From Patescibacteria group bacterium (GTDB lineage Bacteria; Patescibacteriota; Minisyncoccia; 2-02-FULL-40-12; GWA2-44-9), in the NCBI GenBank assembly GCA_038061995.1, contig JBBTYA010000001.1, forward strand, positions 10,441-74,440: a DNA stretch of 64,000 nt, given 5' to 3'. This document shows, in pieces, positions 56 to 63,990 of this stretch. The notes below the pieces were generated by a model. The model worked only from the letters and a program-made list of their open reading frames with translations, ran no database searches and was not told the DNA's origin. The position numbers and the translations under genes are program-made. Positions within the stretch are counted from its first letter, which is position 1; every line of letters starts with the position of its first letter.

Positions 56-128
56 GGCGGGGGCGCCAGGATTTGAACCTGGATACCTGGTTTTGGAGAC
101 CAGAGTCCTACCGTTGAACGACACCCCC
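56..128 (-). tRNA. tRNA-Trp (anticodon CCA); 3' end encodes CC then U, not a full CCA
   Basis: Cloverleaf read by hand on the reverse complement. Acceptor stem is GGGGGTG/CGCCCCC, T-arm is CCAGGTTCAAATCCTGG, and the anticodon loop CTCCAAA gives CCA. Confidence 0.8.
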
Positions 129-167
129 ATGACAAAGACCTGCGCACGGGTGCACAGGCTTTGTAAA

Positions 168-332
168 CTAGCCGGTCAGTTTTGCTTCTTTGTGAATCGT
201 CCGCTTTTTGCAAGAAGAGCAGAACTTTCGTAACTCAATCTTTCGCTCTACTTTCTTCTTGTTTTTCGACGTGTAGTAATTGGCCTCTTTACACACGGCG
301 CACTTCAGACGAATAAGGTTGTCTTGTGACAT
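168..332 (-). CDS. rpmG: 50S ribosomal protein L33
   Basis: The translation MSQDNLIRLKCAVCKEANYYTSKNKKK...CSSCKKRTIHKEAKL shows the L33 zinc-ribbon signature. The internal ATG at 332 was preferred over the track start at 386. Confidence 0.85.
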   Translation of the reverse strand: MSQDNLIRLKCAVCKEANYYTSKNKKKVERKIELRKFCSSCKKRTIHKEAKLTG

Positions 333-361
333 ATATGTAATTACGGTTATGACGAACCGTG

Positions 362-433
362 AGCCGACGGTGAGAATTGAACTCACGACCTACTCCTTAC
401 CATGGAGTTGCTCTACCTCTGAGCTACGTCGGC
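362..433 (-). tRNA. tRNA-Thr (anticodon GGT); no encoded CCA
   Basis: Acceptor stem GCCGACG/CGTCGGC, D-arm TAGCTCAGAGGTAGAGC, anticodon loop ATGGTAA and T-loop GTTCAATTC. Confidence 0.8.
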
Positions 434-452
434 ATGCTTCCCTTCTCCTCAC

Positions 453-595
453 TGTGGGGGCGGTAGGCTCTCCTTCGCCTCTCGACTTGCCGTCGCAAGT
501 CTCGGGCTAGGCACCGACTCGCGATCGCATAAGCTTTTGCGATACCGCTCCGTCGTTCGAATCCCACCGCTTCAGAACGACGATGATTTTTTACA
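453..595. other. Unresolved structured segment between tRNA-Thr(GGT) and tRNA-Tyr. It holds an exact 15-nt copy of the tRNA-Tyr 3' end (tgtgggggcggtagg), GC hairpins, and a + strand hairpin followed by a U-run. By E. coli-like synteny this is where a tRNA-Gly would be expected, but no cloverleaf could be folded.
   Basis: The 15-mer at 453-467 is identical to 623-637. There is a perfect 7-bp hairpin cgacttgc/gcaagtc and an 8-bp hairpin ccgtcgttc...gaacgacg followed by ATGATTTTTT. No T-arm or anticodon arm could be found on either strand. Confidence 0.25.
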
Positions 596-623
596 TGCCT
601 CAAGGCATCTAAAAAATACATTG

Positions 624-708
624 TGGGGGCGGTAGGATTCGAACCTACGTAGGCCGATCGGCCGACAGATTTACAGTCTGTTGTGATTGACCACTCCACC
701 ACACCCCC
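624..708 (-). tRNA. tRNA-Tyr (anticodon GTA), class II with a long variable arm; no encoded CCA
   Basis: Acceptor stem GGGGGTG/CGCCCCC, anticodon stem-loop ACAGA-CTGTAAA-TCTGT, long variable arm CGGCCGATCGGCC and T-arm GTAGGTTCGAATCCTAC. Confidence 0.85.
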
Positions 709-724
709 ATGTAATGAACTGCGG

Positions 725-796
725 AGCCGGCGGTCGGGATTGAACCGACGACCTACTGTTTACAAAACAGTTGCTCTACCACTGAGCTACGCCGGC
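725..796 (-). tRNA. tRNA-Thr (anticodon TGT)
   Basis: Acceptor stem GCCGGCG/CGCCGGC, anticodon stem-loop ACTGT-TTTGTAA-ACAGT and T-arm GTCGGTTCAATCCCGAC. Confidence 0.8.
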
Positions 797-17433: not shown

Positions 17434-17537
17434 CACCGCGGCTGAAGACGAAAAGATGTGGGGGCCACAAGCCCCCACATCCCCCTCCACTACCGTTCTT
17501 TACAGAATCACAGCGCGCCACACGGCGCACAACAAGG

Positions 17538-17566
17538 GGCCTCGCGGAAACGCTCGAGGCCTTTTT
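17538..17566 (+). terminator. Rho-independent terminator (+ strand)
   Basis: Stem ggcctcg cggaaacgct cgaggcc followed by ttttt. Confidence 0.4.
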
Positions 17567-17618
17567 CATACCTAAAACTGCCTATTTTCCTTGCTTTTTT
17601 CGGCTATATTCGTGGTTG

Positions 17619-17648
17619 TTGACATATATAGTGGAAATGTGATAGTAT
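17619..17648 (+). promoter_or_regulatory. Sigma70-like promoter (TTGACA, then 17-18 nt, then TAGTAT/ATAGTA)
   Basis: Sequence TTGACAtatatagtggaaatgtgaTAGTATatata. It lies upstream of a ~550-nt terminator-delimited unit. Confidence 0.4.
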
Positions 17649-17838
17649 ATATACAGTTCCGTAAAAACCAATAGCGCGGGCCGGGCCACATTGGCCGCCC
17701 GCACACAAGAAAAACCCGTTGCGCAAAATCGCCCCGCTCGGCCGACCCCCTCGATGGGCTCGCGCGCCGACAAGGCACACGCGCAGCATGTCCGCTTGTA
17801 AGAGCGCTGGAAACGCCTTACGAGCAAGGAGAAGCGCT

Positions 17839-17940
17839 ATGCACGCTCACTCCCCGCCCGTCGCGGGAACCCTGGAGAAGAAATTCAAGTTCGACTTCGA
17901 CAAGGGCCTGGCCGGCGACAACGGCACCCTCCTGAAGTAG
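17839..17940 (+). CDS. Candidate small ORF of 33 aa with a Shine-Dalgarno sequence (AGGAGA, 6 nt upstream), inside the promoter-to-terminator unit 17619-18212
   Basis: Sequence caAGGAGAagcgctATG..., encoding MHAHSPPVAGTLEKKFKFDFDKGLAGDNGTLLK. The track shows a longer 73-aa in-frame version starting at 17719. Confidence 0.3.
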   Translation: MHAHSPPVAGTLEKKFKFDFDKGLAGDNGTLLK

Positions 17941-18179
17941 GGCGTCGGCGCCTCCGCTCGTAACCCCCCACTCCGCCATCGTTCCACGACGGGACGAAAG
18001 AGAGATCGGGGGGAACCGGCAACCACAGTCGGCGTAGAGCGTTTCCGAAGGCATTTCTGAAGGTGCCCAAGGAGAAGCCTACGCAGAGAAAGGACTAAGA
18101 ACCGCCACCCACCGCAGCCCTGGCACGGCAGGCACCGCCCCCACACGGGGAGCGCGCCCAAGAGTGGGTTGACCAACAA

Positions 18180-18212
18180 GGGGCTCCGACACATCGGAGC
18201 CCCTCTTTTATT
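18180..18212 (+). terminator. Rho-independent terminator (+ strand)
   Basis: Stem ggggctccg acacat cggagcccc followed by tcttttatt. Confidence 0.45.
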
Positions 18213-18229
18213 ACTCCAAAACGCGGGAA

Positions 18230-18258
18230 TTGACAGTTGTTATAAAAGACAGTATACT
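18230..18258 (+). promoter_or_regulatory. Sigma70-like promoter (TTGACA, 17 nt, TATACT) heading a ~300-nt ORF-less unit that ends at the 18531-18573 terminator
   Basis: Sequence TTGACAgttgttataaaagacagTATACT. Confidence 0.4.
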
Positions 18259-18530
18259 CTTTTTAGCACTTTTCATCCGTCATCCCCATCGCCCCCCCAC
18301 GCAGGTTTCAGCAATCTTCGTGGGGCCAGCCCCTTTTGACTCCTAAAGGGCCGATTCGTGTGCATAGTCTTTCTCCAGGCAAAGGTGCACACGCCATGCA
18401 GCCGTCCGAAGGTCGGCAAAGAAGGAATCGAGAGAGCCCCCTCTCTTGAACGTCTCTGCATGGTCCCGCTGATGCGCAAAGCAAACGCATCAGACCTCCT
18501 TTCGCGGCGCTTGCCGCACGTCGCCGTTCG

Positions 18531-18573
18531 CCCCTCGTGTAATCCGGGATATCACGAGGGGCTTTTTCTTTTT
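18531..18573 (+). terminator. Rho-independent terminator (+ strand)
   Basis: Stem cccctcgtg ... cacgagggg followed by ctttttcttttt. Confidence 0.45.
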
Positions 18574-47570: not shown

Positions 47571-47819
47571 ATGAGCATTATACTTTGGATAGTATTCGGT
47601 GCGTTAGCAGGGTGGATCGCATCTATGGTCATGGGCACCAACGCACAACAGGGAGCAATCGCGAATATCGTTATCGGTATTCTCGGAGCTGTTATTGGAG
47701 GCTTTGTCGTATCGTCTTTTGGCGGTTCTGGATCTACGGGCTTCAATCTGTATAGCCTCCTTGTGGCGGTTCTCGGTGCAGTGATCCTCATCTGGCTGAT
47801 ACGATTACTCAAGCGCTAG
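47571..47819 (+). CDS. GlsB/YeaQ/YmgE-family (transglycosylase-associated) stress membrane protein
   Basis: [17 protein letters not shown]...[16 protein letters not shown] signature. Confidence 0.75.
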
Positions 47820-47845
47820 AAAGCAGCCATGCTCTCTAACATAAA

Positions 47846-47872
47846 ACGACCCACGTGGGTCGTTTTATTGCA
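47846..47872 (+). terminator. Rho-independent terminator after the yeaQ-like gene
   Basis: Stem aaacgacccac gtgggtcgttt followed by tatt. Confidence 0.5.
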
Positions 47873-47889
47873 TTCTATATAGAAAATGT

Positions 47890-48212
47890 AAAGAAAAAGG
47901 GCCCCGATGCGTTGGGGCCCAGAACGACAGCAACCCTACCAGGGCGTAACACTGAGAACTCCACAACGGTGAAGCCCTCCTTCTCGGCATTCAGCCAGTT
48001 GAGCTCTCACTGGCCTGAGGCTTGAAGTCGCCTCCGTAGCTTCGGTAGCGAGTTTTCGCATTTAGGAACCTTAGCTAACGGTCTGGGTTTACGTCTCAGC
48101 GATGTGCTGCTGAAAAAAGGTACGAACGATCCTCCCTCTCGTCTCTATACGAACCAGTCCCAAAACCTCGGCTTCTGGTATGCCCTAGCTTGGGTAGAGA
48201 CTTTCAGGCTGC
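47890..48212 (-). ncRNA. Candidate ~320-nt GC-rich structured ncRNA of unknown class, with no ORF, delimited by a promoter (TTGACG, 17 nt, TAAACT at 48220-48248) and a rho-independent terminator (47898-47921)
   Basis: No ORF of 60 aa or more on either strand. Promoter and terminator geometry are good. Internal hairpins include GCCAGUGAGAGCUCAACUGGC. The tests made for RNase P P4 (GGAAAGUCCGG), the tmRNA termini and the SRP domain IV motif were negative. Confidence 0.35.
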
Positions 48213-48247
48213 CACGACAAGTTTAGTACACTCAGAAAAATCGTCAA

Positions 48248-48273
48248 GAAAAAGCGACGGTCGAAACCGTCGC
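48248..48273 (-). terminator. Rho-independent terminator after the island gene 48391-48669
   Basis: Minus-strand stem gcgacgg tttcga ccgtcgc followed by tttttc. Confidence 0.4.
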
Positions 48274-48390
48274 CTGCAGGCCTCCTGGTTTTTACACCAT
48301 CAGCCCGCCGAAGTAGCGATGCTCACCGAGCACCGTCCCGGCAGGAACAGCCAGTCTCCCTCAATGTGTAATGTGGCTCCAAAACAAGGA

Positions 48391-48669
48391 CTACTGGATC
48401 TCCTTTCTCTTAGTAAGAACGTCTTCGGCCTTTTTAGAAAGTCCGAGGTCTCCAGTAAGATCGATTAGTTGATTATCCGATAAGAATATTAGTCCCTCGG
48501 ACAACTCCGCTTCAACTTTTATTTTTTCTTCCAAGTCTTCTGAAGACACATTTTGAACATTTATCTTATCACCGGGCATGGCTTCATAGGCTCGAATAGA
48601 AGTCTTCCTTAGAAGCTCCTTATACCTTTTAAATAGCGCTTGATATTTTTTTACAGAATTTATATCCAT
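48391..48669 (-). CDS. Hypothetical Lys/Glu-rich small protein (AT-rich island gene 4 of 4)
   Basis: 92-aa ORF in a segment whose GC is visibly lower than its flanks. Confidence 0.35.
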   Translation of the reverse strand: MDINSVKKYQALFKRYKELLRKTSIRAYEAMPGDKINVQNVSSEDLEEKIKVEAELSEGLIFLSDNQLIDLTGDLGLSKKAEDVLTKRKEIQ

Positions 48670-48672
48670 TAC

Positions 48673-49236
48673 TTATTTTCTTACCCACACCTGTTGTCGA
48701 GTATTAATTGTTGACCAATCATAGGCAGAAATATAGGTTTGGCTCCCTTTAAGTTTAGCTCCATTTTCTGTTAACTTCATTAAGAAAGCGCCTTTGCCCA
48801 TATTATTACTATCTCTAGCCTTACTATTACACATAAGTATGGTGTCAACGAAAGTACCTTCAAACTCAAACAACTTTCTACACTTTTCACCACTAGGTTG
48901 TTTTGTTAAAAGTAACTCTCCATAAATCTTATTCCCTTGTTGGTTTAAAATTACTGTTGATTCTGAGTCCGGCCCAACCACATACTCACCTCCCTCAATC
49001 GTTGCCGCATATCCAAGCCATTCCCCACGTATATTAATACCCTTGTAAATTAAATTCTGATACCAGGGAAGTACTATTTTTCTAAAAATAGAGATTGTAA
49101 ACCCAATAATAACGTAGGTTATTATACCAGCCACTACGCCCAAAAAAAGATTTACAGCTGCATAATTTATGTATGCATTCATAGAAGCCATCGGCTCCGA
49201 GTCGTAAACGACGTTAGAACTATTGCGCAACAGCAA
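48673..49236 (-). CDS. Hypothetical membrane-anchored protein (island gene 3 of 4)
   Basis: 187 aa with one N-terminal TM helix (LFLGVVAGIITYVIIGFTISIF) and then a soluble domain. Confidence 0.35.
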   Translation of the reverse strand: MLLRNSSNVVYDSEPMASMNAYINYAAVNLFLGVVAGIITYVIIGFTISIFRKIVLPWYQNLIYKGINIRGEWLGYAATIEGGEYVVGPDSESTVILNQQGNKIYGELLLTKQPSGEKCRKLFEFEGTFVDTILMCNSKARDSNNMGKGAFLMKLTENGAKLKGSQTYISAYDWSTINTRQQVWVRK

Positions 49237-49268
49237 AATCGGTATATCTACATTCCTGATTTAAGGAA

Positions 49269-49463
49269 TTATCCTACTCTCATCAGCGCTCCTAATGCAT
49301 CAGCCCAGAGTTGGTCGTAATCTTTACTTCTTGAAATAAAAATTCTTGAGCCGTCTTTCTTCATGCCCCAAATCTCCAAATCCTGTCGGATTAAAGCCAT
49401 ATCCTTTTGGAGTGCCAAAAGCACTGCTTCCTCTTTATCTTTTTGTCGCTGTTCTTCGGTCAT
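49269..49463 (-). CDS. Hypothetical small protein (island gene 2 of 4)
   Basis: 64-aa ORF. Confidence 0.3.
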   Translation of the reverse strand: MTEEQRQKDKEEAVLLALQKDMALIRQDLEIWGMKKDGSRIFISRSKDYDQLWADALGALMRVG

Positions 49464-49469
49464 TATATT

Positions 49470-50060
49470 TTACCCCACGGGGCTACTCACTATTATCTTT
49501 AATAGCTCATCAAGAATAAGTGGATATTCTTTTATGTTATCGCTTCCTCCTATATGCCCCTTGCCTTTTACCACAATCGTTTTAGCTCCTAACCTATCTT
49601 CGAATAAATCCTTGTTCTCCAATGGAACATATGGGTCATTATCTGAAAAAATAGCTGTTATGTGATTAATAGTATGTTTTACTTTTTCATTATTCATCGG
49701 AGTATCAAGCCACGGTTGAGCGGTTTGCTTATCTTTTTCATCATCAAAAGCATCGTCGGTAAGAGTGTACCAGCCAGCCACCGCCACAACGCCACCTACT
49801 TTTGTATGAGCTTTTTCTAAGTATCTTAAAATAGTTTGGACTCCTATGCTATGGCCAACAAAATAGGTGTTCTCGTCTGGAGTTTCGACTAGATTATCTA
49901 GAAAGGAAACCCATGTATCTATTTTGGGAGCTTCTGCCTCTGGCATTAATGGAACCTCTGCCTGTATCCCTCGTTTTTCTAACTCTTCTTCCAGCCATAA
50001 AAACCAGCACTCCTCTGGATAGCCAGCCCAGCCGTGGATGATATAGACTCGTTTTAACAT
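49470..50060 (-). CDS. Alpha/beta-hydrolase (YdeN/RBBP9-like serine hydrolase) (island gene 1 of 4)
   Basis: IIHGWAG and the GHSIG nucleophile elbow, with a later His. Confidence 0.6.
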   Translation of the reverse strand: MLKRVYIIHGWAGYPEECWFLWLEEELEKRGIQAEVPLMPEAEAPKIDTWVSFLDNLVETPDENTYFVGHSIGVQTILRYLEKAHTKVGGVVAVAGWYTLTDDAFDDEKDKQTAQPWLDTPMNNEKVKHTINHITAIFSDNDPYVPLENKDLFEDRLGAKTIVVKGKGHIGGSDNIKEYPLILDELLKIIVSSPVG

Positions 50061-50253
50061 AAAACCTATCTTATCATTTTTTACTCAAAAGTTCTAACGT
50101 CCACAAAGGGTCAAAGCAAAACACCGCAGAAGATGCGGTGTTTTGGAACTGCTCCGAGTCTTTGGGGGTATTAGAAAGTATTATCTCCTATCTTCAGTGC
50201 ACCATAATTGATGAACTAAAGAACGGAGTAGGTCAACAAGCGGACCTGCAACG

Positions 50254-50575: not shown

Positions 50576-50854
50576 TGGCTCCGCGGGTAGGACTCGAACC
50601 TACAACCCTCTCGTTACACGAATTCCAGTATTTTCATACCGGCGTGGACTATATCTTCACCATATCGCATATGCGACACAGGCGTTCTGGTATCTAGTCT
50701 CTACGGCGCCCCCGCCGAGGCGGGGTTCCCACGGTATTACCTCTCGTAAAAAACGAAGGGGCTTCACCGTTATCCCAGAAAGTTTCAATGCGCCTTTCGA
50801 CGCAAAGCTGCGTTTATCTCACAGCGAGACGCTCTACCATTGAGCTACCGCGGA
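50576..50854 (-). tRNA. tRNA-Asn (anticodon GTT) interrupted by a ~204-nt group I intron (50617-50820) in the anticodon loop between positions 35 and 36. It encodes the 3' CCA.
   Basis: The 5' exon TCCGCGGTAGCTCAATGGTAGAGCGTCTCGCTGT and the 3' exon TAACGAGAGGGTTGTAGGTTCGAGTCCTACCCGCGGAGCCA join to a canonical cloverleaf. The intron carries group I conserved elements: the S-like AAGATATAGTCC and the R-like GTAGAGACTAGATACC. The internal guide sequence GCAGC pairs with exon GCUGU, giving a U.G pair at the 5' splice site. The intron ends with G. Confidence 0.7.
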
Positions 50855-51177
50855 ATATTTTTTGTATAAGTGCTTGGAATCTTTCTTACCTTTGCGTGTA
50901 TCTCTCGATGACAATTTGCACACACCAGAATGCATTTATCAGCTTCCGCCTTTATCTTTTCTAGAGATCGCGTAAGCCCCCGAGCTGAAAGCCCGAACTC
51001 TTTCTGATGCGCGACTACGTGATGCAGATCAAGGGCCCAAATAGACCGCTTATATCCGCAAAACACACACGCACCACCTCTATATGCCACAACGAGAGAT
51101 CGAAGCTTGCGCCTTCGCGCTGCAACAGCCTTTTTGAGATACTCAGCTCGATCGCGATAGGTTCTCACATCTGGCAT
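50845..51177 (-). CDS. HNH endonuclease, free-standing, immediately upstream of the intron-containing tRNA
   Basis: CVFCGY...LDLHHV...CANCHREIH HNH zinc-finger motifs. The start was placed at MPDVRTY (51177), which has a TATACT element 9 nt upstream. Confidence 0.6.
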   Translation of the reverse strand: MPDVRTYRDRAEYLKKAVAARRRKLRSLVVAYRGGACVFCGYKRSIWALDLHHVVAHQKEFGLSARGLTRSLEKIKAEADKCILVCANCHREIHAKVRKIPSTYTKNIPR

Positions 51178-51259
51178 ATACACTGTAGTATACCACAAAA
51201 CCCCATGCCTGAGAACCCTATCGCAACCAAGTATATTGAGGATAGCCCCAAAAAGCAAC

Positions 51260-55643: not shown

Positions 55644-55647
55644 AGTG

Positions 55648-55731
55648 CGGAGGGTGTAGGATTCGAACCTACGAGGGCTTTCGCCCACCTGTTTTCAAGA
55701 CAGGCGCCTTAAACCACTCGGCCAACCCTCC
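55648..55731 (-). tRNA. tRNA-Ser (anticodon TGA), class II with a long variable arm
   Basis: Acceptor stem GGAGGGT/ACCCTCC, D-arm GCCGAGTGGTTTAAGGC, anticodon loop CTTGAAA and T-arm GTAGGTTCGAATCCTAC. Confidence 0.8.
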
Positions 55732-62242: not shown

Positions 62243-62461
62243 ATGGAAACCATTCTCTCCTACGCACATATTGCAGTATCAGTCCTCCTGGTCATTGGCA
62301 TCCTCATGCAGCAACGCGGAGGCGGCCTTTCTTCCGTCATGGGGGCTGGCGCTATGGAATACGCTACAAAGCGTGGCGCAGAGCACACTATCTATATCGC
62401 CACCATTGTGTTTGCCGTTCTCTTCGTCGGAATCTCGATCGCACGCATTGCGCTGAGCTAA
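62243..62461 (+). CDS. secG: Preprotein translocase subunit SecG
   Basis: METILSYAHIAVSVLLVIGILMQQRGGGLSSVMG signature. The internal ATG at 62243 was used. Confidence 0.75.
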   Translation: METILSYAHIAVSVLLVIGILMQQRGGGLSSVMGAGAMEYATKRGAEHTIYIATIVFAVLFVGISIARIALS

Positions 62462-62479
62462 GCGCGACGTGCTTTTCGC

Positions 62480-63990
62480 ATGCCACATAACGAACACCAG
62501 TTAGACGACTTCTTTTCCGCGCCTGCACCACAGACGGCGGGAGCTCCCTCTGAGCGCGAAGGCGATCCTGTCGCGGCACGCATTTTCTGGCGCCAACGAT
62601 TCCGTCTTCTTCCAAAAGTCCTCTCATTCCGCGAACGCTACAGCATCGCAGCTCTCGCACTTGTTGTTATCGCAAGTATCGCACTCATTCCCGTCGCACT
62701 GTGGCGATCTTCTACAGTTGTTGGCGCCGACACCGGCGGTTCATTTACTGAAGGCATTCTCGGCGAGCCTCGTTTTATTAACCCCGTACTTTCGTATGCG
62801 AATGAAGTAGATCGCGATCTTGAAACGCTTCTCTTTTCGGGGCTTCTCTCTTTTGATACCCAAGGAAACCTCATCCCCGATCTCGCGAAAACATTCCCAG
62901 AGATTTCAAGTGACGGGCTGAACTATACCGTCTACTTAAAAGAACACGCGCTCTGGCACGACGGTAAACCCGTTACCGCAGATGACGTCTTATTCACTAT
63001 TGAAACGATCCAAAACCCTGATTTTGGAAGCCCGTTACGCATCGCGTGGCAGGGAGTTACCGTTGAAAAAGTAAATGAATTCGCGGTGATGTTTAAGCTG
63101 AAAACAGCATACGCACAATTCCCCAACACGCTTACTGTTGGTCTTATCCCAAAGCACATCTGGCAAGACATTCGGCCCGCATCATTTGCGCTTCATGATC
63201 TCAATACACGCCCTGTCGGCGCTGGGCCCTATCGCTTTGAGAAACTTGAGAAAGATAGCGTGGGGCGCATCTCGTCATACACGGTACGTGCATTTGAAGA
63301 CTTTCATGCGGGTCGCCCTTATATCGATCGCGTGACAATACAATTCTTCCAAAGTGAAGATGCGCTCATCGACGCATTCAAACGTCGCCAGATCGATAGC
63401 ATCGCCGGAATTTCTCCAAAAGCCCAGAAGGAGATCGGGTCACCACGACGCATCACCTATGCCGACACAAGCATCCCTCGTTACTTTGCAGTTTTCTTTA
63501 ACCAGAGCCGTAGCGCGCTCATTGCCGACAGAAATGTGCGCCTTGCGCTTTCACATGCAACCGATCGCGATGCGCTTATCACCGATGTCCTGCATGGCAA
63601 AGGCGTATCCGTTGATCGCCCGTTTGTTGAAAGTGTTCTTTCTATTCCAGACGACGTTGCCGCTCCAGCATTTGATCCAGAAAAAGCGAAAGCAGTACTC
63701 ACCGCCGATGGATGGGCGCTCGGAAATGATGGCATCTTTGCAAAGCGCGGCACGCGGCTATCTCTTACGCTCACCACCAGCACGCAGCCGGAGCTTGCTG
63801 ACGTAGCGCAACGCATCGCGACACAGTGGCGCACTGCGGGGGTAGAACTTACCGTTTCTTCGCTCTCGTTTGTTCAGTTGCAACAAGCTATTAAGGATCG
63901 TTCCTATGACATGCTTCTCTTTGGAGTGGTAATGAGTTTGGATCCCGATCCATTCCCAGTCTGGCACTCATCGCAAAAGCGTGAGCCGGG
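62480..63990 (+). CDS. ABC transporter substrate-binding protein, family 5 (peptide/nickel, OppA/DppA-like); C-terminally truncated by the window end
   Basis: N-terminal TM/signal anchor and SBP_bac_5 motifs (GGSFTEGILGEPRFINP, YTVYLKEHALWHDGKPVTADDVLFT). The ORF is open to position 63990 and is absent from the track because it runs off the end. Confidence 0.7.

What the first reader, a model, noticed from the sequence alone, without database searches (positions are those of the whole stretch)
47890..48248. Promoter- and terminator-delimited ~320-nt GC-rich RNA with no coding capacity
A TTGACG, 17 nt, TAAACT promoter lies at 48220-48248 and a strong intrinsic terminator (gggcccc...ggggccc plus U-run) lies at ~47895. 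Together they bracket a ~320-nt GC-rich stretch on the minus strand that has no ORF. It sits between an AT-rich island and convergent + strand genes. The stretch holds several stable hairpins (e.g. GCCAGUGAGAGCUCAACUGGC-UGAAUG, which faintly resembles RNase P P18/J18-2). It lacks P4 (GGAAAGUCCGG), tmRNA termini and SRP domain IV motifs. In a small genome the essential ncRNAs (RNase P RNA, tmRNA, SRP RNA, 6S) must be somewhere. This may be a divergent version of one of them, or a novel ncRNA.
Basis: seen in the sequence. Interest (0 to 1): 0.5.

Follow-up and report, generated by a model that had tools for sequence, protein, structure and literature searches.

The report
Probable highly divergent RNase P RNA
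This unannotated, structured stretch in a tiny groundwater bacterium (Patescibacteria) is most likely its gene for RNase P RNA, the ribozyme that trims tRNA precursors, but it has diverged so far that standard RNA-family searches do not detect it.

Summary
The promoter match is no better than chance. The structured non-coding block is larger than described: 47895-48390, minus strand.

No Rfam family matches, even at E<=10. ARAGORN finds no tmRNA. A profile HMM and two covariance models, built here from 12 genuine rnpB genes, also fail to pick the locus out.

The locus does show the RNase P core layout in the right order:
- contiguous P1/P2 5' strands
- GAAAGUC with the bulged U, pairing to AGGGCUU (a P4 pseudoknot with compensatory changes)
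- P5
- AGGGCA
- CGUAAACCC
- an AA J5/15
- a P18-like hairpin
- UGAAUG abutting P2-3', then P4-3', then P1-3'

In a 20-feature count test it scores 9. Genuine rnpB genes score 16-19, the next-best site in the window scores 4, and none of 268,898 random anchors reached 9.

My best reading, at confidence ~0.7, is a very divergent rnpB of about 371 nt (47966-48336). It has an expanded ~120-nt P3 region.

I found no homologues, so there is no covariation evidence. This would be a new variant of a known kind.

The parts
47895..48390 (-). Whole non-coding, structured block between the GlsB-like gene (47571-47819, +) and the 92-aa ORF of the AT-rich island (48391-48669, -).
   Evidence: ORF lists. Composition. 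Minus-strand MFE z-score -3.0 against -1.15 on the plus strand. A six-frame translation matches none of 5.8 billion proteins at E<=10.
47966..48336 (-). Proposed RNase P RNA (rnpB), from P1 5' strand to P1 3' strand, about 371 nt.
   Evidence: It is the only locus in the window that passes the RNase P core descriptor, which 12 of 12 genuine rnpB genes pass. It scores 9 of 20 canonical features, against a maximum of 8 in 268,898 random anchors. The constrained RNase P-like fold is -122.6 kcal/mol plus -6.7 for P4, against an unconstrained MFE of -133.9.
48331..48336 (-). P1 5' strand, ACGGUG. It pairs with CACCGU at 47966-47971.
   Evidence: Read from the sequence. Found by the descriptor scans.
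48325..48330 (-). P2 5' strand, CUCGG(U), contiguous with P1. It pairs with (G)CCGAG at 47983-47988.
48206..48324 (-). Expanded 'P3' region of about 119 nt: several hairpins, two of them with UUCG loops, plus a U-rich linker. A canonical P3 is a single stem-loop.
   Evidence: Sequence and folds. This is the least canonical part of the model.
48252..48275 (-). Terminator-like hairpin inside the P3 region: 10-bp stem, UUCG loop, followed by UUUUUCUU.
   Evidence: Terminator scan.
48220..48247 (-).
   Evidence: Promoter scan: 9 of 12 matches, not above the shuffle expectation.
48193..48205 (-). CR-I / P4 5' strand, GAAAGUCUCUACC. It has the canonical AAAG-U(bulge)-C, followed by variant inner pairs.
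   Evidence: Motif position. P4 duplex AAG(U)CUCU(A)CC / GGAGGGCUU, -6.7 kcal/mol.
48181..48190 (-). P5 5' strand, AGCUA, followed by AGGGCA. The canonical J5/7 is AuAGGgcA.
   Evidence: (Rfam consensus).
48078..48180 (-). Reduced specificity-domain region. It contains one hairpin (48153-48179) where P8 and P9 would be, a P10/P11-like element (GG-UUC-GU...GU-AA-AC-CC), AUAGAGA (the canonical motif is ACAGARA), a P12-like hairpin and one further hairpin.
   Evidence: Threaded by hand against the RF00010 consensus. This is only partly canonical and is not statistically tested as a whole.
48085..48093 (-). CR-III-like motif, CGUAAACCC. The canonical form is gGcAAaCCCC, which contains the AA bulge of P11.
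48071..48077 (-). P5 3' strand, UAGCU, followed by the AA of J5/15.
48017..48070 (-). P15-like region: GGU...ACC enclosing the hairpin GCGA-AAAC-UCGC, followed by a further hairpin GAGGC...GCCUC. There is no GGU CCA-binding motif.
   Evidence: Folds. All five tRNA genes in the window lack an encoded CCA.
47994..48014 (-). P18-like hairpin, GCCAGU-GAGAGCUCA-ACUGGC. It has no GNRA tetraloop.
47972..47993 (-). J18/2 (UGAAUG), P2 3' strand (CCGAG), J2/4 (AA-GG) and P4 3' strand (AGGGCUU), in the canonical order.
47899..47965 (-). 3' trailer of about 45 nt, followed by the intrinsic terminator (47920-47899) and a U-run.
47841..47868 (.). Perfect palindromic hairpin, AAAACGACCCACGUGGGUCGUUUU. It looks like a bidirectional terminator shared with the convergent GlsB-like gene.
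   Evidence: Sequence. Self-match in blastn.

Best explanation
The block encodes the RNA subunit of RNase P (rnpB) of this Patescibacteria (Parcubacteria, Yanofskybacteria-like) genome, in a very divergent, reduced type-A-like form.

The inferred gene runs from about 48336 to 47966 on the minus strand (about 371 nt). It is followed by a 45-nt trailer and the strong terminator at 47920-47899.

Shown directly by the sequence:
- Contiguous P1 and P2 5' strands (ACGGUG|CUCGG).
- GAAAGUC with the universally bulged U.
- A P4 pseudoknot whose inner pairs have changed on both strands: canonical CCGG/CCGG has become CUCU/AGGG.
- P5 (AGCUA/UAGCU), with AGGGCA after its 5' strand and AA (J5/15) after its 3' strand.
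- A CGUAAACCC element with a matching GG-NNN-GU partner (P10/P11 geometry).
- A P15-like stem, a P18-like hairpin, and UGAAUG abutting P2-3'.
- Then AA, P4-3' and P1-3', in exactly the canonical order.

Inferred, not shown:
- The transcript folds this way.
- With the RnpA protein, it cleaves the 5' leaders of pre-tRNAs.
- The missing L15 GGU motif reflects tRNA genes that do not encode CCA.
- The ~120-nt region between P2 and J3/4 is an expansion of P3. The terminator-like hairpin and promoter-like hexamers inside it are either non-functional or make the RNA bipartite.
For: 1. Descriptor test. A descriptor of the RNase P core was built so that 12 of 12 genuine, phylogenetically diverse rnpB genes pass it (their RF00010 scores are 257-341 bits). 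It requires AA[AC]GUC, a P4 complement plus GC[UG]U, ARRA, the J18/2 motif abutting P2-3', nested P2/P1, and CR-III plus J5/15 plus P5. Exactly one site in the window passes, the GAAAGUC at 48205-48199 (-). In 2804 random 128-kb sequences the two halves passed at 0.0018 and 0.14 per sequence, and never together. No site passed in 831 kb of other real DNA.
2. Feature-count test. This scores 20 canonical features whether or not the candidate has them. Genuine rnpB genes score 16-19. The candidate scores 9. The next best site in the window scores 4. Among 268,898 random anchors the maximum was 8 (once), and none reached 9. In 293 real-DNA anchors the maximum was 5.
3. The P4 inner pairs, P5, P2 and P1 all differ in sequence from the canonical helices but still pair. 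That is the pattern expected of a maintained RNA, not of decay.
4. The structure signal is confined to the minus strand.
5. The RNase P-like fold is energetically competitive with the MFE.
6. The P1-to-P1 length of 371 nt is typical of rnpB.
7. No other rnpB is detectable in the 64-kb window or in a further 7.8 kb of the contig.
8. Precedent: 10 of 35 complete CPR genomes had RNase P RNAs missed at Rfam thresholds. Many of those lacked P13, P14, P16 and P17, and two-thirds lacked the CCA-binding motif (PMC8172020).
9. All five tRNA genes in the window lack an encoded CCA.
Against: 1. No probabilistic model sees it.
   - Rfam RF00010, RF00011 and the rest give nothing at E<=10 on 801-nt and 271-nt slices.
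   - An nhmmer profile of 12 real rnpB genes gives no hit even at E<=1000 on the candidate alone.
   - Two covariance models built here from real rnpB genes, trimmed of P13, P14 and P16-17, do not list the locus among their E<=10 hits in the window.
2. About half of the near-invariant type-A features are missing: AGG before AAAGUC, CGRRC after it, the P8 UAAC loop, separate P8 and P9, ACAGARA (here AUAGAGA), the J12/13 motif AAGGGUGAAA, RAGCAA, AGA before J18/2, ACA in J2/4, the GNRA loop of P18, and the final A of GGCUUA.
3. 'P3' would be about 120 nt long and multi-hairpinned. It would carry a canonical-looking intrinsic terminator followed by promoter-like hexamers.
4. Competing local helices exist: GUCUCUA/UAGAGAC plus CCCAAG/UUUGGG, and GGUGCUC/GAGCAUC.
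5. No homologue was found, so there is no covariation evidence.
6. I chose the descriptor ranges and feature definitions after seeing the candidate. The widened ranges are included in the null, but some freedom of choice remains uncorrected.
Confidence: 0.7

Rival explanations
1. It is a lineage-specific structured small RNA, or two adjacent ones, unrelated to RNase P. On this reading RNA-A (about 48390-48250) ends at the first terminator. RNA-B (about 48213-47895) starts at the promoter-like site and ends at the second terminator. This is essentially the reader's transcription unit. The function is unknown, and the RNase P-like motifs are coincidental.
For: - A terminator-like hairpin sits immediately before the promoter-like hexamers, and a second strong terminator follows. 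This looks like two tandem units.
- Both halves have negative z-scores on the minus strand (-3.3 and -2.4).
- Every probabilistic RNase P model fails.
- No homologues were found with RNase P-style anchors in 596 Gb of genomes or in the JGI metagenomes.
- RNA-B can close on itself (GGCAGC/GCUGUC).
Against: - Nine canonical RNase P features in the correct order and nesting were never reached by 268,898 random anchors or by other real DNA.
- The P1/P2 5' strands that complete the pseudoknot topology lie in 'RNA-A', which links the two halves.
- The promoter match is not above chance.
Confidence: 0.15
2. It is non-functional sequence. Either it is a decaying remnant of a former rnpB copy, or it is simply 3' UTR and terminator DNA left next to a horizontally acquired AT-rich island. 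On this reading the working RNase P RNA, or a protein-only RNase P, is encoded elsewhere in the genome.
For: - Many invariant RNase P nucleotides are lost.
- The block abuts an AT-rich, probably acquired island.
- Gene order around it is not shared with relatives.
- The locus was not found in relatives.
- Only about 72 kb of the genome could be inspected for another rnpB.
Against: - The helices are kept through changes on both strands (P4 inner pairs, P5, P2, P1). That is not the pattern of decay.
- The folding signal is strand-specific.
- These genomes are compact, and this is the longest gene-free stretch in this part of the window.
- The sequence is identical in independent assemblies from several samples. 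That only shows it is the same population.
Confidence: 0.1
3. It is another essential ncRNA in divergent form: tmRNA, SRP RNA or 6S RNA.
For: Only its size and its non-coding, structured nature.
Against: - ARAGORN finds no tmRNA.
- There is no tRNA-like acceptor/T-arm end and no tag reading frame ending in ..LAA in any frame.
- Rfam finds no tmRNA, SRP or 6S at E<=10.
- The predicted fold is multi-branched, not the long interrupted hairpin of 6S or SRP.
Confidence: 0.03

Closest known systems
Bacterial RNase P RNA, type A (Rfam RF00010; E. coli M1 RNA as reference)
   Same: - The order and nesting of P1, P2, P4 (a pseudoknot with a bulged U), P5, J5/15 AA, P15, P18, J18/2, then P2', P4' and P1'.
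- The motifs GAAAGUC, AGGGCA, GUAAACC, AAGG..CC.AAAU, UGAAUG, AGAA and GGCUU.
- The P10/P11 geometry: 2 bp, a 3-nt bulge, and an AA bulge.
- The length, about 371 nt.
   Different: - The inner P4 pairs are CUCU/AGGG instead of CCGG/CCGG.
- J3/4 reads CUG instead of AGG.
- P5 starts 8 nt after GUC instead of 4 nt.
- There are no recognisable separate P8 and P9 and no UAAC loop.
- There is no J12/13 AAGGGUGAAA, and no P13, P14, P16, P17 or P6.
- There is no GGU in L15 and no GNRA loop in P18.
- 'P3' is a ~120-nt multi-hairpin region.
- No covariance model or HMM built from canonical members detects it.
Diverged RNase P RNAs of Candidate Phyla Radiation genomes (Lui, Nielsen & Arkin 2021, PMC8172020)
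   Same: - The same superphylum.
- Missed by Rfam at curated thresholds.
- Loss of P13, P14, P16 and P17.
- Loss of the CCA-binding UGG/GGU motif in two-thirds of cases.
- Large helix extensions, and structures that needed manual refolding.
   Different: - Those RNAs were still recovered with RF00010 at a lowered threshold (5 bits), and the paper says they kept 'many conserved features'. This one gives no RF00010 match at E<=10.
- This one has an altered P4 core.
- The expansion is in P3, not P15, and it carries terminator- and promoter-like signals.
- I could not compare sequences directly, because none are given in the paper's text.
Reduced RNase P RNAs lacking conserved helices: the Mycoplasma fermentans P RNA without P12, and the archaeal Thermoproteaceae RNase P RNAs without P12. 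Both are cited as such in PMC8172020. My description of the Thermoproteaceae form as 'type T', with most of the specificity domain missing, is from memory.
   Same: They are precedent that a working P RNA can lose supposedly universal specificity-domain elements while keeping P1-P4 and the catalytic core.
   Different: They belong to different lineages and show different losses. None is known to me with a changed P4 inner helix plus an expanded P3.
Two-piece (permuted) tmRNAs and fragmented rRNAs. These are analogues for the novel reading only, cited from my own knowledge.
   Same: They are essential structured RNAs made as two pieces that assemble by base pairing. A break in a peripheral loop is tolerated.
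   Different: No natural split rnpB is known to me. Here the split is suggested only by a terminator-like hairpin followed by promoter-like hexamers.

Membership tests
Bacterial RNase P RNA type A (RF00010) | Scores with the family covariance model (gathering score 100 bits), or at least gives a sub-threshold match. | tested here: not met
   There is no RF00010 or RF00011 match at the gathering score, nor at E<=10 on 47700-48500 and 47955-48225. The only clan hit is a meaningless RNase_MRP alignment of 13.7 bits over the terminator. Custom CMs R1 and R2 and an nhmmer profile built from 12 real rnpB genes also miss the locus.
Bacterial RNase P RNA type A (RF00010) | P4 pseudoknot: A-A-A-G-U(bulged)-C plus inner pairs on the 5' side, paired to ...G-C-U-U on the 3' side about 150-440 nt downstream. 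| tested here: met
   GAAAGUCUCU(A)CC at 48205-48193 pairs with GGAGGGCUU at 47980-47972. The U is bulged at the canonical place, and the duplex energy is -6.7 kcal/mol. The inner pairs differ from the canonical ones on both strands.
Bacterial RNase P RNA type A (RF00010) | Contiguous P1 and P2 5' strands upstream of P3/P4, and a 3' end ordered J18/2, P2-3', J2/4, P4-3', P1-3'. | tested here: met
   ACGGUG|CUCGG(U) at 48336-48325 pairs with (G)CCGAG at 47988-47983 and CACCGU at 47971-47966. This is part of the descriptor that 12 of 12 real rnpB genes pass, and that passes at 0.0018 per 128 kb of random sequence.
Bacterial RNase P RNA type A (RF00010) | P3 is a single stem-loop directly between P2 and J3/4. 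| tested here: not met
   About 119 nt (48324-48206) lie between P2 and J3/4. They form several hairpins, including a terminator-like one, plus a U-rich linker. An alternative, weaker P1/P2 pairing (GACGG|UUUCG at 48271-48262) would give a shorter P3, but it competes with the 10-bp hairpin.
Bacterial RNase P RNA type A (RF00010) | CR-III (gGcAAaCCCC), P5 closing the specificity domain, and AA in J5/15. | tested here: met
   CGUAAACCC at 48093-48085. P5 is AGCUA (48190-48186) pairing with UAGCU (48077-48073), followed by AAGG. The spacings are 2-4 nt longer than canonical.
Bacterial RNase P RNA type A (RF00010) | Specificity-domain invariants: P8 with a UAAC loop, P9, the ACAGARA of J11/12, and the AAGGGUGAAA of J12/13. 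| tested here: not met
   All are absent in the feature test. AUAGAGA differs from ACAGAGA by one base. One hairpin (48179-48153) stands where P8 and P9 would be.
Bacterial RNase P RNA type A (RF00010) | P15/L15 with a GGU that pairs with the tRNA 3' CCA. | tested here: not met
   There is a short P15-like stem but no GGU on its 3' side. Two-thirds of CPR RNase P RNAs also lack this motif (PMC8172020). None of the five tRNA genes in the window encodes CCA.
Bacterial RNase P RNA type A (RF00010) | P18 hairpin with a GNRA loop, followed by J18/2 (AGAuGAAUG). | tested here: inconclusive
   There is a 6-bp hairpin at 48014-47994, immediately followed by UGAAUG. Its loop is 9 nt rather than a GNRA tetraloop, and the AGA is missing.
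Bacterial RNase P RNA type A (RF00010) | Conserved in related genomes, with compensatory changes in the helices. | tested here: inconclusive
   No homologue was retrieved.
- Identical copies only were found in the same population.
- Two collection-wide pattern scans returned only chance-level hits.
- Five syntenic look-ups in relatives lacked it (nhmmer on the fetched loci).
Bacterial RNase P RNA type A (RF00010) | It is the only RNase P RNA gene of the genome, and it cleaves pre-tRNA 5' leaders. | not testable with these tools
   Only the 64-kb window plus 7.8 kb could be searched, and no other rnpB was found there. Catalysis needs an experiment.
tmRNA | tRNA-like domain formed by the 5' and 3' ends, plus a tag-peptide reading frame. 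| tested here: not met
   ARAGORN finds none. Rfam finds none. No frame ends in an ..A-A tag.
SRP RNA / 6S RNA | For SRP RNA, the domain IV motif with a GNAR loop. For 6S RNA, a long interrupted hairpin with a central bubble. | tested here: not met
   No Rfam match at E<=10. The predicted fold is multi-branched.

The most novel reading that the evidence does not exclude
The RNase P RNA of this organism is made in two pieces. A 5' fragment would carry the P1 and P2 5' strands and end at the internal terminator (48252). A separately initiated 3' fragment would start at the promoter-like site (about 48213) and carry everything else. The two would assemble through P1 and P2. Alternatively, an intervening sequence in P3 is cut out after transcription. 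Either way this would be a natural split or fragmented bacterial ribozyme gene.
Probability: 0.1. Interest if true: 0.8.

Novelty: new variant of a known kind. Interest (0 to 1): 0.5.

Why it matters
RNase P RNA is used as a near-universal marker of genome completeness and as a model ribozyme. A working P RNA of this kind would widen the known sequence space of the catalytic core. It would have changed inner P4 pairs, would lack several 'invariant' specificity-domain elements, and would be invisible to RF00010 even at permissive thresholds. It would also explain some 'missing' rnpB genes in Patescibacteria genomes, and it would give a seed for a new covariance model. If the internal terminator and promoter are functional, it would be the first natural two-piece bacterial RNase P RNA that I am aware of.

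Tried and rejected
- Rfam at gathering score and at E<=10: nothing relevant.
- ARAGORN: no tmRNA.
- Exact-protein look-ups for the neighbouring genes: only identical copies of the locus, with 100% identity over 581 nt.
- Synteny through C39-peptidase homologues P0004, P0029 and P0006 and RpoD homologues P0122 and P0150: gene order is not conserved, and nhmmer with the candidate finds nothing.
- Genome-contig scan with TGAATG-N{4,8}-AAGGAGGGCTTCA: 22 hits, which is the number expected by chance. None is from Patescibacteria.
- Metagenome-contig scan with GAAAGTCT-N-CGTAAACC-N-GGGCTTC: 20 hits, all coding-like, with no nhmmer similarity.
- Six-frame translation used as a protein query, to catch pseudogenes or spurious ORF calls in relatives: nothing at E<=10.
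- blastn against the phage and plasmid collections: nothing meaningful.
- Self-blast for repeats within the window: none.
- Pfam and PADLOC on the island genes: no reverse transcriptase, TnpB/IscB, integrase or defence protein that would suggest a retron, omega-RNA or similar element.
- nhmmer profile and two trimmed covariance models built from 12 real rnpB genes: the candidate is not recovered.
- My first descriptors were too strict. They required GAATG or GTAAAC...AAAT, and only 6 of 12 and 1 of 12 genuine rnpB genes passed. I replaced them with descriptors that 12 of 12 pass.
- A weak nhmmer hit of the rnpB profile at 18277-18244, inside another GC-rich gene-poor stretch, was checked as a rival rnpB location. 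There is no RNase P signal there.
- An apparently ORF-poor stretch at 62457-63353 turned out to be part of a 594-aa SBP_bac_5 gene that runs off the end of the window.
Full report
**Context.** The window comes from a Patescibacteria (Parcubacteria) genome close to Candidatus Yanofskybacteria. It was assembled from Hainich groundwater. The neighbouring proteins are 100% identical to those of an NCBI 'Patescibacteria group bacterium' MAG, and the nearest other RpoD and C39-peptidase homologues are about 80% identical and labelled Yanofskybacteria.

The finding lies between two features:
- a + strand cluster of C39 peptidase, YggT-like and GlsB/Transgly_assoc genes, ending at 47819;
- an AT-rich block (GC 0.33-0.41, 48391 to about 50100) that carries four minus-strand ORFs. 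Only one has a Pfam match, a Ser_hydrolase.

**Checking the observation.** The strong terminator is real: 47920..47899, 7 G-C pairs plus a U-run. The TTGACG/TAAACT hexamers at 48247..48220 are also real. Their spacer is 16 nt, not 17, and a 9-of-12 match is no more frequent here than in shuffled sequence (6 found, 4.7 expected).

There is no supported ORF. A six-frame translation of 47880-48400 matches none of 5.8 billion proteins at E<=10.

Two things were missed. First, the non-coding block is really about 495 nt (47895-48390). It contains a second terminator-like hairpin (48275..48252: 10 bp, UUCG loop, U-run) directly upstream of the 'promoter'. Second, folding stability is strand-specific. 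The plus strand gives -0.5 to -1.2.

**Family searches are negative.**
- Rfam 15 at the gathering score finds only five tRNAs in the window.
- At E<=10 on 801-nt and 271-nt slices it finds only noise: terminator look-alikes and a meaningless 13.7-bit RNase_MRP alignment.
- ARAGORN finds no tmRNA.
- blastn against the phage and plasmid collections finds nothing.

**No homologues could be retrieved.**
- Contigs that carry the same neighbouring protein are 100% identical over the whole block, so they are the same population.
- Gene order is not conserved in relatives reached through C39 and RpoD homologues, and nhmmer with the candidate finds nothing there.
My patterns required about 19-23 exactly conserved bases, so these scans say little about divergent relatives.

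**Why I nevertheless read it as RNase P RNA.** Reading the minus strand from 48336, the elements of the bacterial RNase P core appear in canonical order and nesting.

| Element | Sequence | Coordinates / note |
|---|---|---|
| P1 | ACGGUG / CACCGU | 48336-48331 / 47971-47966 |
| P2 | CUCGG(U) / (G)CCGAG | 48330-48325 / 47988-47983; contiguous with P1 |
| 'P3' region | about 119 nt | 48324-48206 |
| CR-I | GAAAGUC, U at the universally bulged position | 48205-48199 |
| P4 | AAG(U)CUCU(A)CC / GGAGGGCUU | 3' strand at 47980-47972 |
| P5 | AGCUA / UAGCU | 48190-48186 / 48077-48073 |
| J5/7 | AGGGCA | follows the P5 5' strand; Rfam consensus AuAGGgcA |
| J5/15 | AA, then GG..CC.AAAU | follows the P5 3' strand; consensus CAAggccAAAUAGG |
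| CR-III | CGUAAACCC | 48093-48085; consensus gGcAAaCCCC |
| P10/P11 | upstream partner GG-UUC-GU | reproduces the 2 bp, 3-nt bulge and AA bulge |
| P15-like stem and P18-like hairpin | GCCAGU...ACUGGC | P18 at 48014-47994 |
| 3' end | UGAAUG, P2-3', AA, P4-3', P1-3' | 47993-47966 |

The inner P4 pairs differ from the canonical CCGG/CCGG on both strands yet still pair. The same holds for P5, P2 and P1. That is what a maintained RNA looks like, not a decaying one. P1 to P1 is 371 nt. With P1, P2 and P5 enforced and the P4 strands left free, the fold has -122.6 kcal/mol plus about -6.7 for P4. The unconstrained MFE is -133.9.

**Testing whether this is pareidolia.** I fetched 12 genuine, diverse type-A rnpB genes: Gamma-, Beta-, Alpha- and Epsilonproteobacteria, Clostridia and Actinomycetota. 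Their RF00010 scores are 257-341 bits.

My first descriptors were over-fitted to E. coli and were discarded.

A generalised descriptor that all 12 pass requires two halves:
- AA[AC]GUC; a P4 complement plus GC[UG]U; ARRA; the J18/2 motif abutting P2-3'; and nested 5-bp P2 and P1.
- CR-III, then 9-13 nt, then AA[GCU][GA], with a 4-bp P5.

Exactly one site in the window passes, and it is this one. In 2804 random 128-kb sequences the two halves occurred at 0.0018 and 0.14 per sequence, and never together. Nothing passed in 831 kb of other real DNA.

Because I had chosen which features to require, I then scored 20 canonical features regardless of whether the candidate has them:
- genuine rnpB genes score 16-19;
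- the candidate scores 9;
- the next best anchor in the window scores 4;
- among 268,898 random anchors the maximum was 8 (once), and none reached 9;
- 293 anchors in other real DNA reach at most 5.

The spacing tolerances were widened with the candidate in view: P3 up to 175 nt, a P5 offset of 0-9, and so on. The null used the same tolerances. Some freedom in how the features were defined remains uncorrected.

**Evidence against.** This must be stated as plainly as the evidence for.
- No probabilistic model sees the locus. Besides Rfam, an nhmmer profile of the 12 real genes finds nothing, even at E<=1000 on the candidate alone.
- Two covariance models built only from the real genes do not list it among their E<=10 hits, with filters off. 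These were trimmed of P13, P14, P16 and P17, which CPR P RNAs often lack according to PMC8172020.
- About half of the near-invariant features are absent: AGG of J3/4, CGRRC, the P8 UAAC loop, separate P8 and P9, J12/13 AAGGGUGAAA, RAGCAA, AGA of J18/2, ACA of J2/4, the P18 GNRA loop and the final A of GGCUUA.
- Competing local helices exist.
- The 'P3' region is abnormal. It is about 119 nt long with several hairpins. One of them looks like a working intrinsic terminator and is followed by the promoter-like hexamers.

**Known context.** Lui et al. (PMC8172020) reported that 10 of 35 complete CPR genomes had RNase P RNAs missed at Rfam thresholds. They also reported frequent loss of P13, P14, P16 and P17, loss of the CCA-binding motif in two-thirds of cases, large helix extensions and, in two genomes, loss of P12. 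The present RNA fits that pattern but is more extreme. The absence of a GGU motif is consistent with the five tRNA genes in the window, none of which encodes CCA. No other rnpB is detectable in the window or in 7.8 kb beyond its end. A weak profile hit inside another gene-poor GC-rich stretch (17490-18571) showed no RNase P signal on inspection.

**Verdict.**

| Reading | Confidence |
|---|---|
| Very divergent RNase P RNA gene at about 47966-48336 (-), with a 3' trailer and terminator | about 0.7 |
| Unrelated lineage-specific sRNA(s), as two tandem units | about 0.15 |
| Non-functional remnant or UTR | about 0.1 |
| tmRNA, SRP or 6S | about 0.03 |

The most novel reading not excluded is a naturally two-piece, or post-transcriptionally fragmented, RNase P RNA (about 0.1).

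Without homologues, transcript data or an activity assay this remains a well-supported hypothesis, not a demonstration.

Noticed in passing
window 17490-18571: A gene-poor, GC-rich stretch of about 1.1 kb with several terminator-like hairpins and no convincing ORF. Rfam at E<=10 gives only noise. The best hit is a sub-threshold type-P3 twister ribozyme match (21.9 bits against a gathering score of 39.9, E 0.15) at 18394-18463 (+).
   Followed up: partly
window 48391-50100: An AT-rich block (GC 0.33-0.41, against about 0.5 around it) with four minus-strand ORFs of 92, 187, 64 and 196 aa. Only the last has a Pfam match (Ser_hydrolase PF06821), and none matches PADLOC. It is probably horizontally acquired. 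The two related contigs examined downstream of rpoD (L029, L030) have a GGDEF gene and a tRNA after rpoD instead.
   Followed up: partly
window 50845-51258 (-): A 137-aa ORF with a weak HNH endonuclease match (Pfam E 0.004; PADLOC endonuclease effector models, E 1e-5) sits immediately downstream of rpoD. The relatives L029 and L030 lack it at that position.
   Followed up: no
window 56-796 and 55647-55731: None of the five tRNA genes (Trp, Thr-GGU, Tyr, Thr-UGU, Ser) encodes the 3' CCA. Four of them are clustered within 750 nt at the start of the window.
   Followed up: yes
window 47841-47868: A perfect 12-bp palindrome flanked by A- and T-runs (AAAACGACCCACGTGGGTCGTTTT). It lies between the GlsB-like gene and the RNA's own terminator and looks like a bidirectional terminator. 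The RNA would then be followed by two terminators in tandem.
   Followed up: no
window 48331-48337 and 48265-48271 (-): The P1/P2 5' strand sequence GACGGU recurs as the 5' arm of the internal terminator-like hairpin (GACGGUUUCG). This gives a second, weaker way to form P1/P2. It hints at a duplication or insertion of about 65 nt within the 5' part of the RNA.
   Followed up: partly
L066 20170-21278 (same contig, about 7 kb beyond the window end): A gene-free stretch of about 760 nt. It holds a reading frame that resembles, from memory only, the four-helix-bundle proteins found in 23S rRNA intervening sequences. It also holds two similar copies of about 130 nt of a GC-rich segment (TTGCGAGCAGAGCCGACGGAT...GTAGACGTAGCGGACGTACAGGT).
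   Followed up: no
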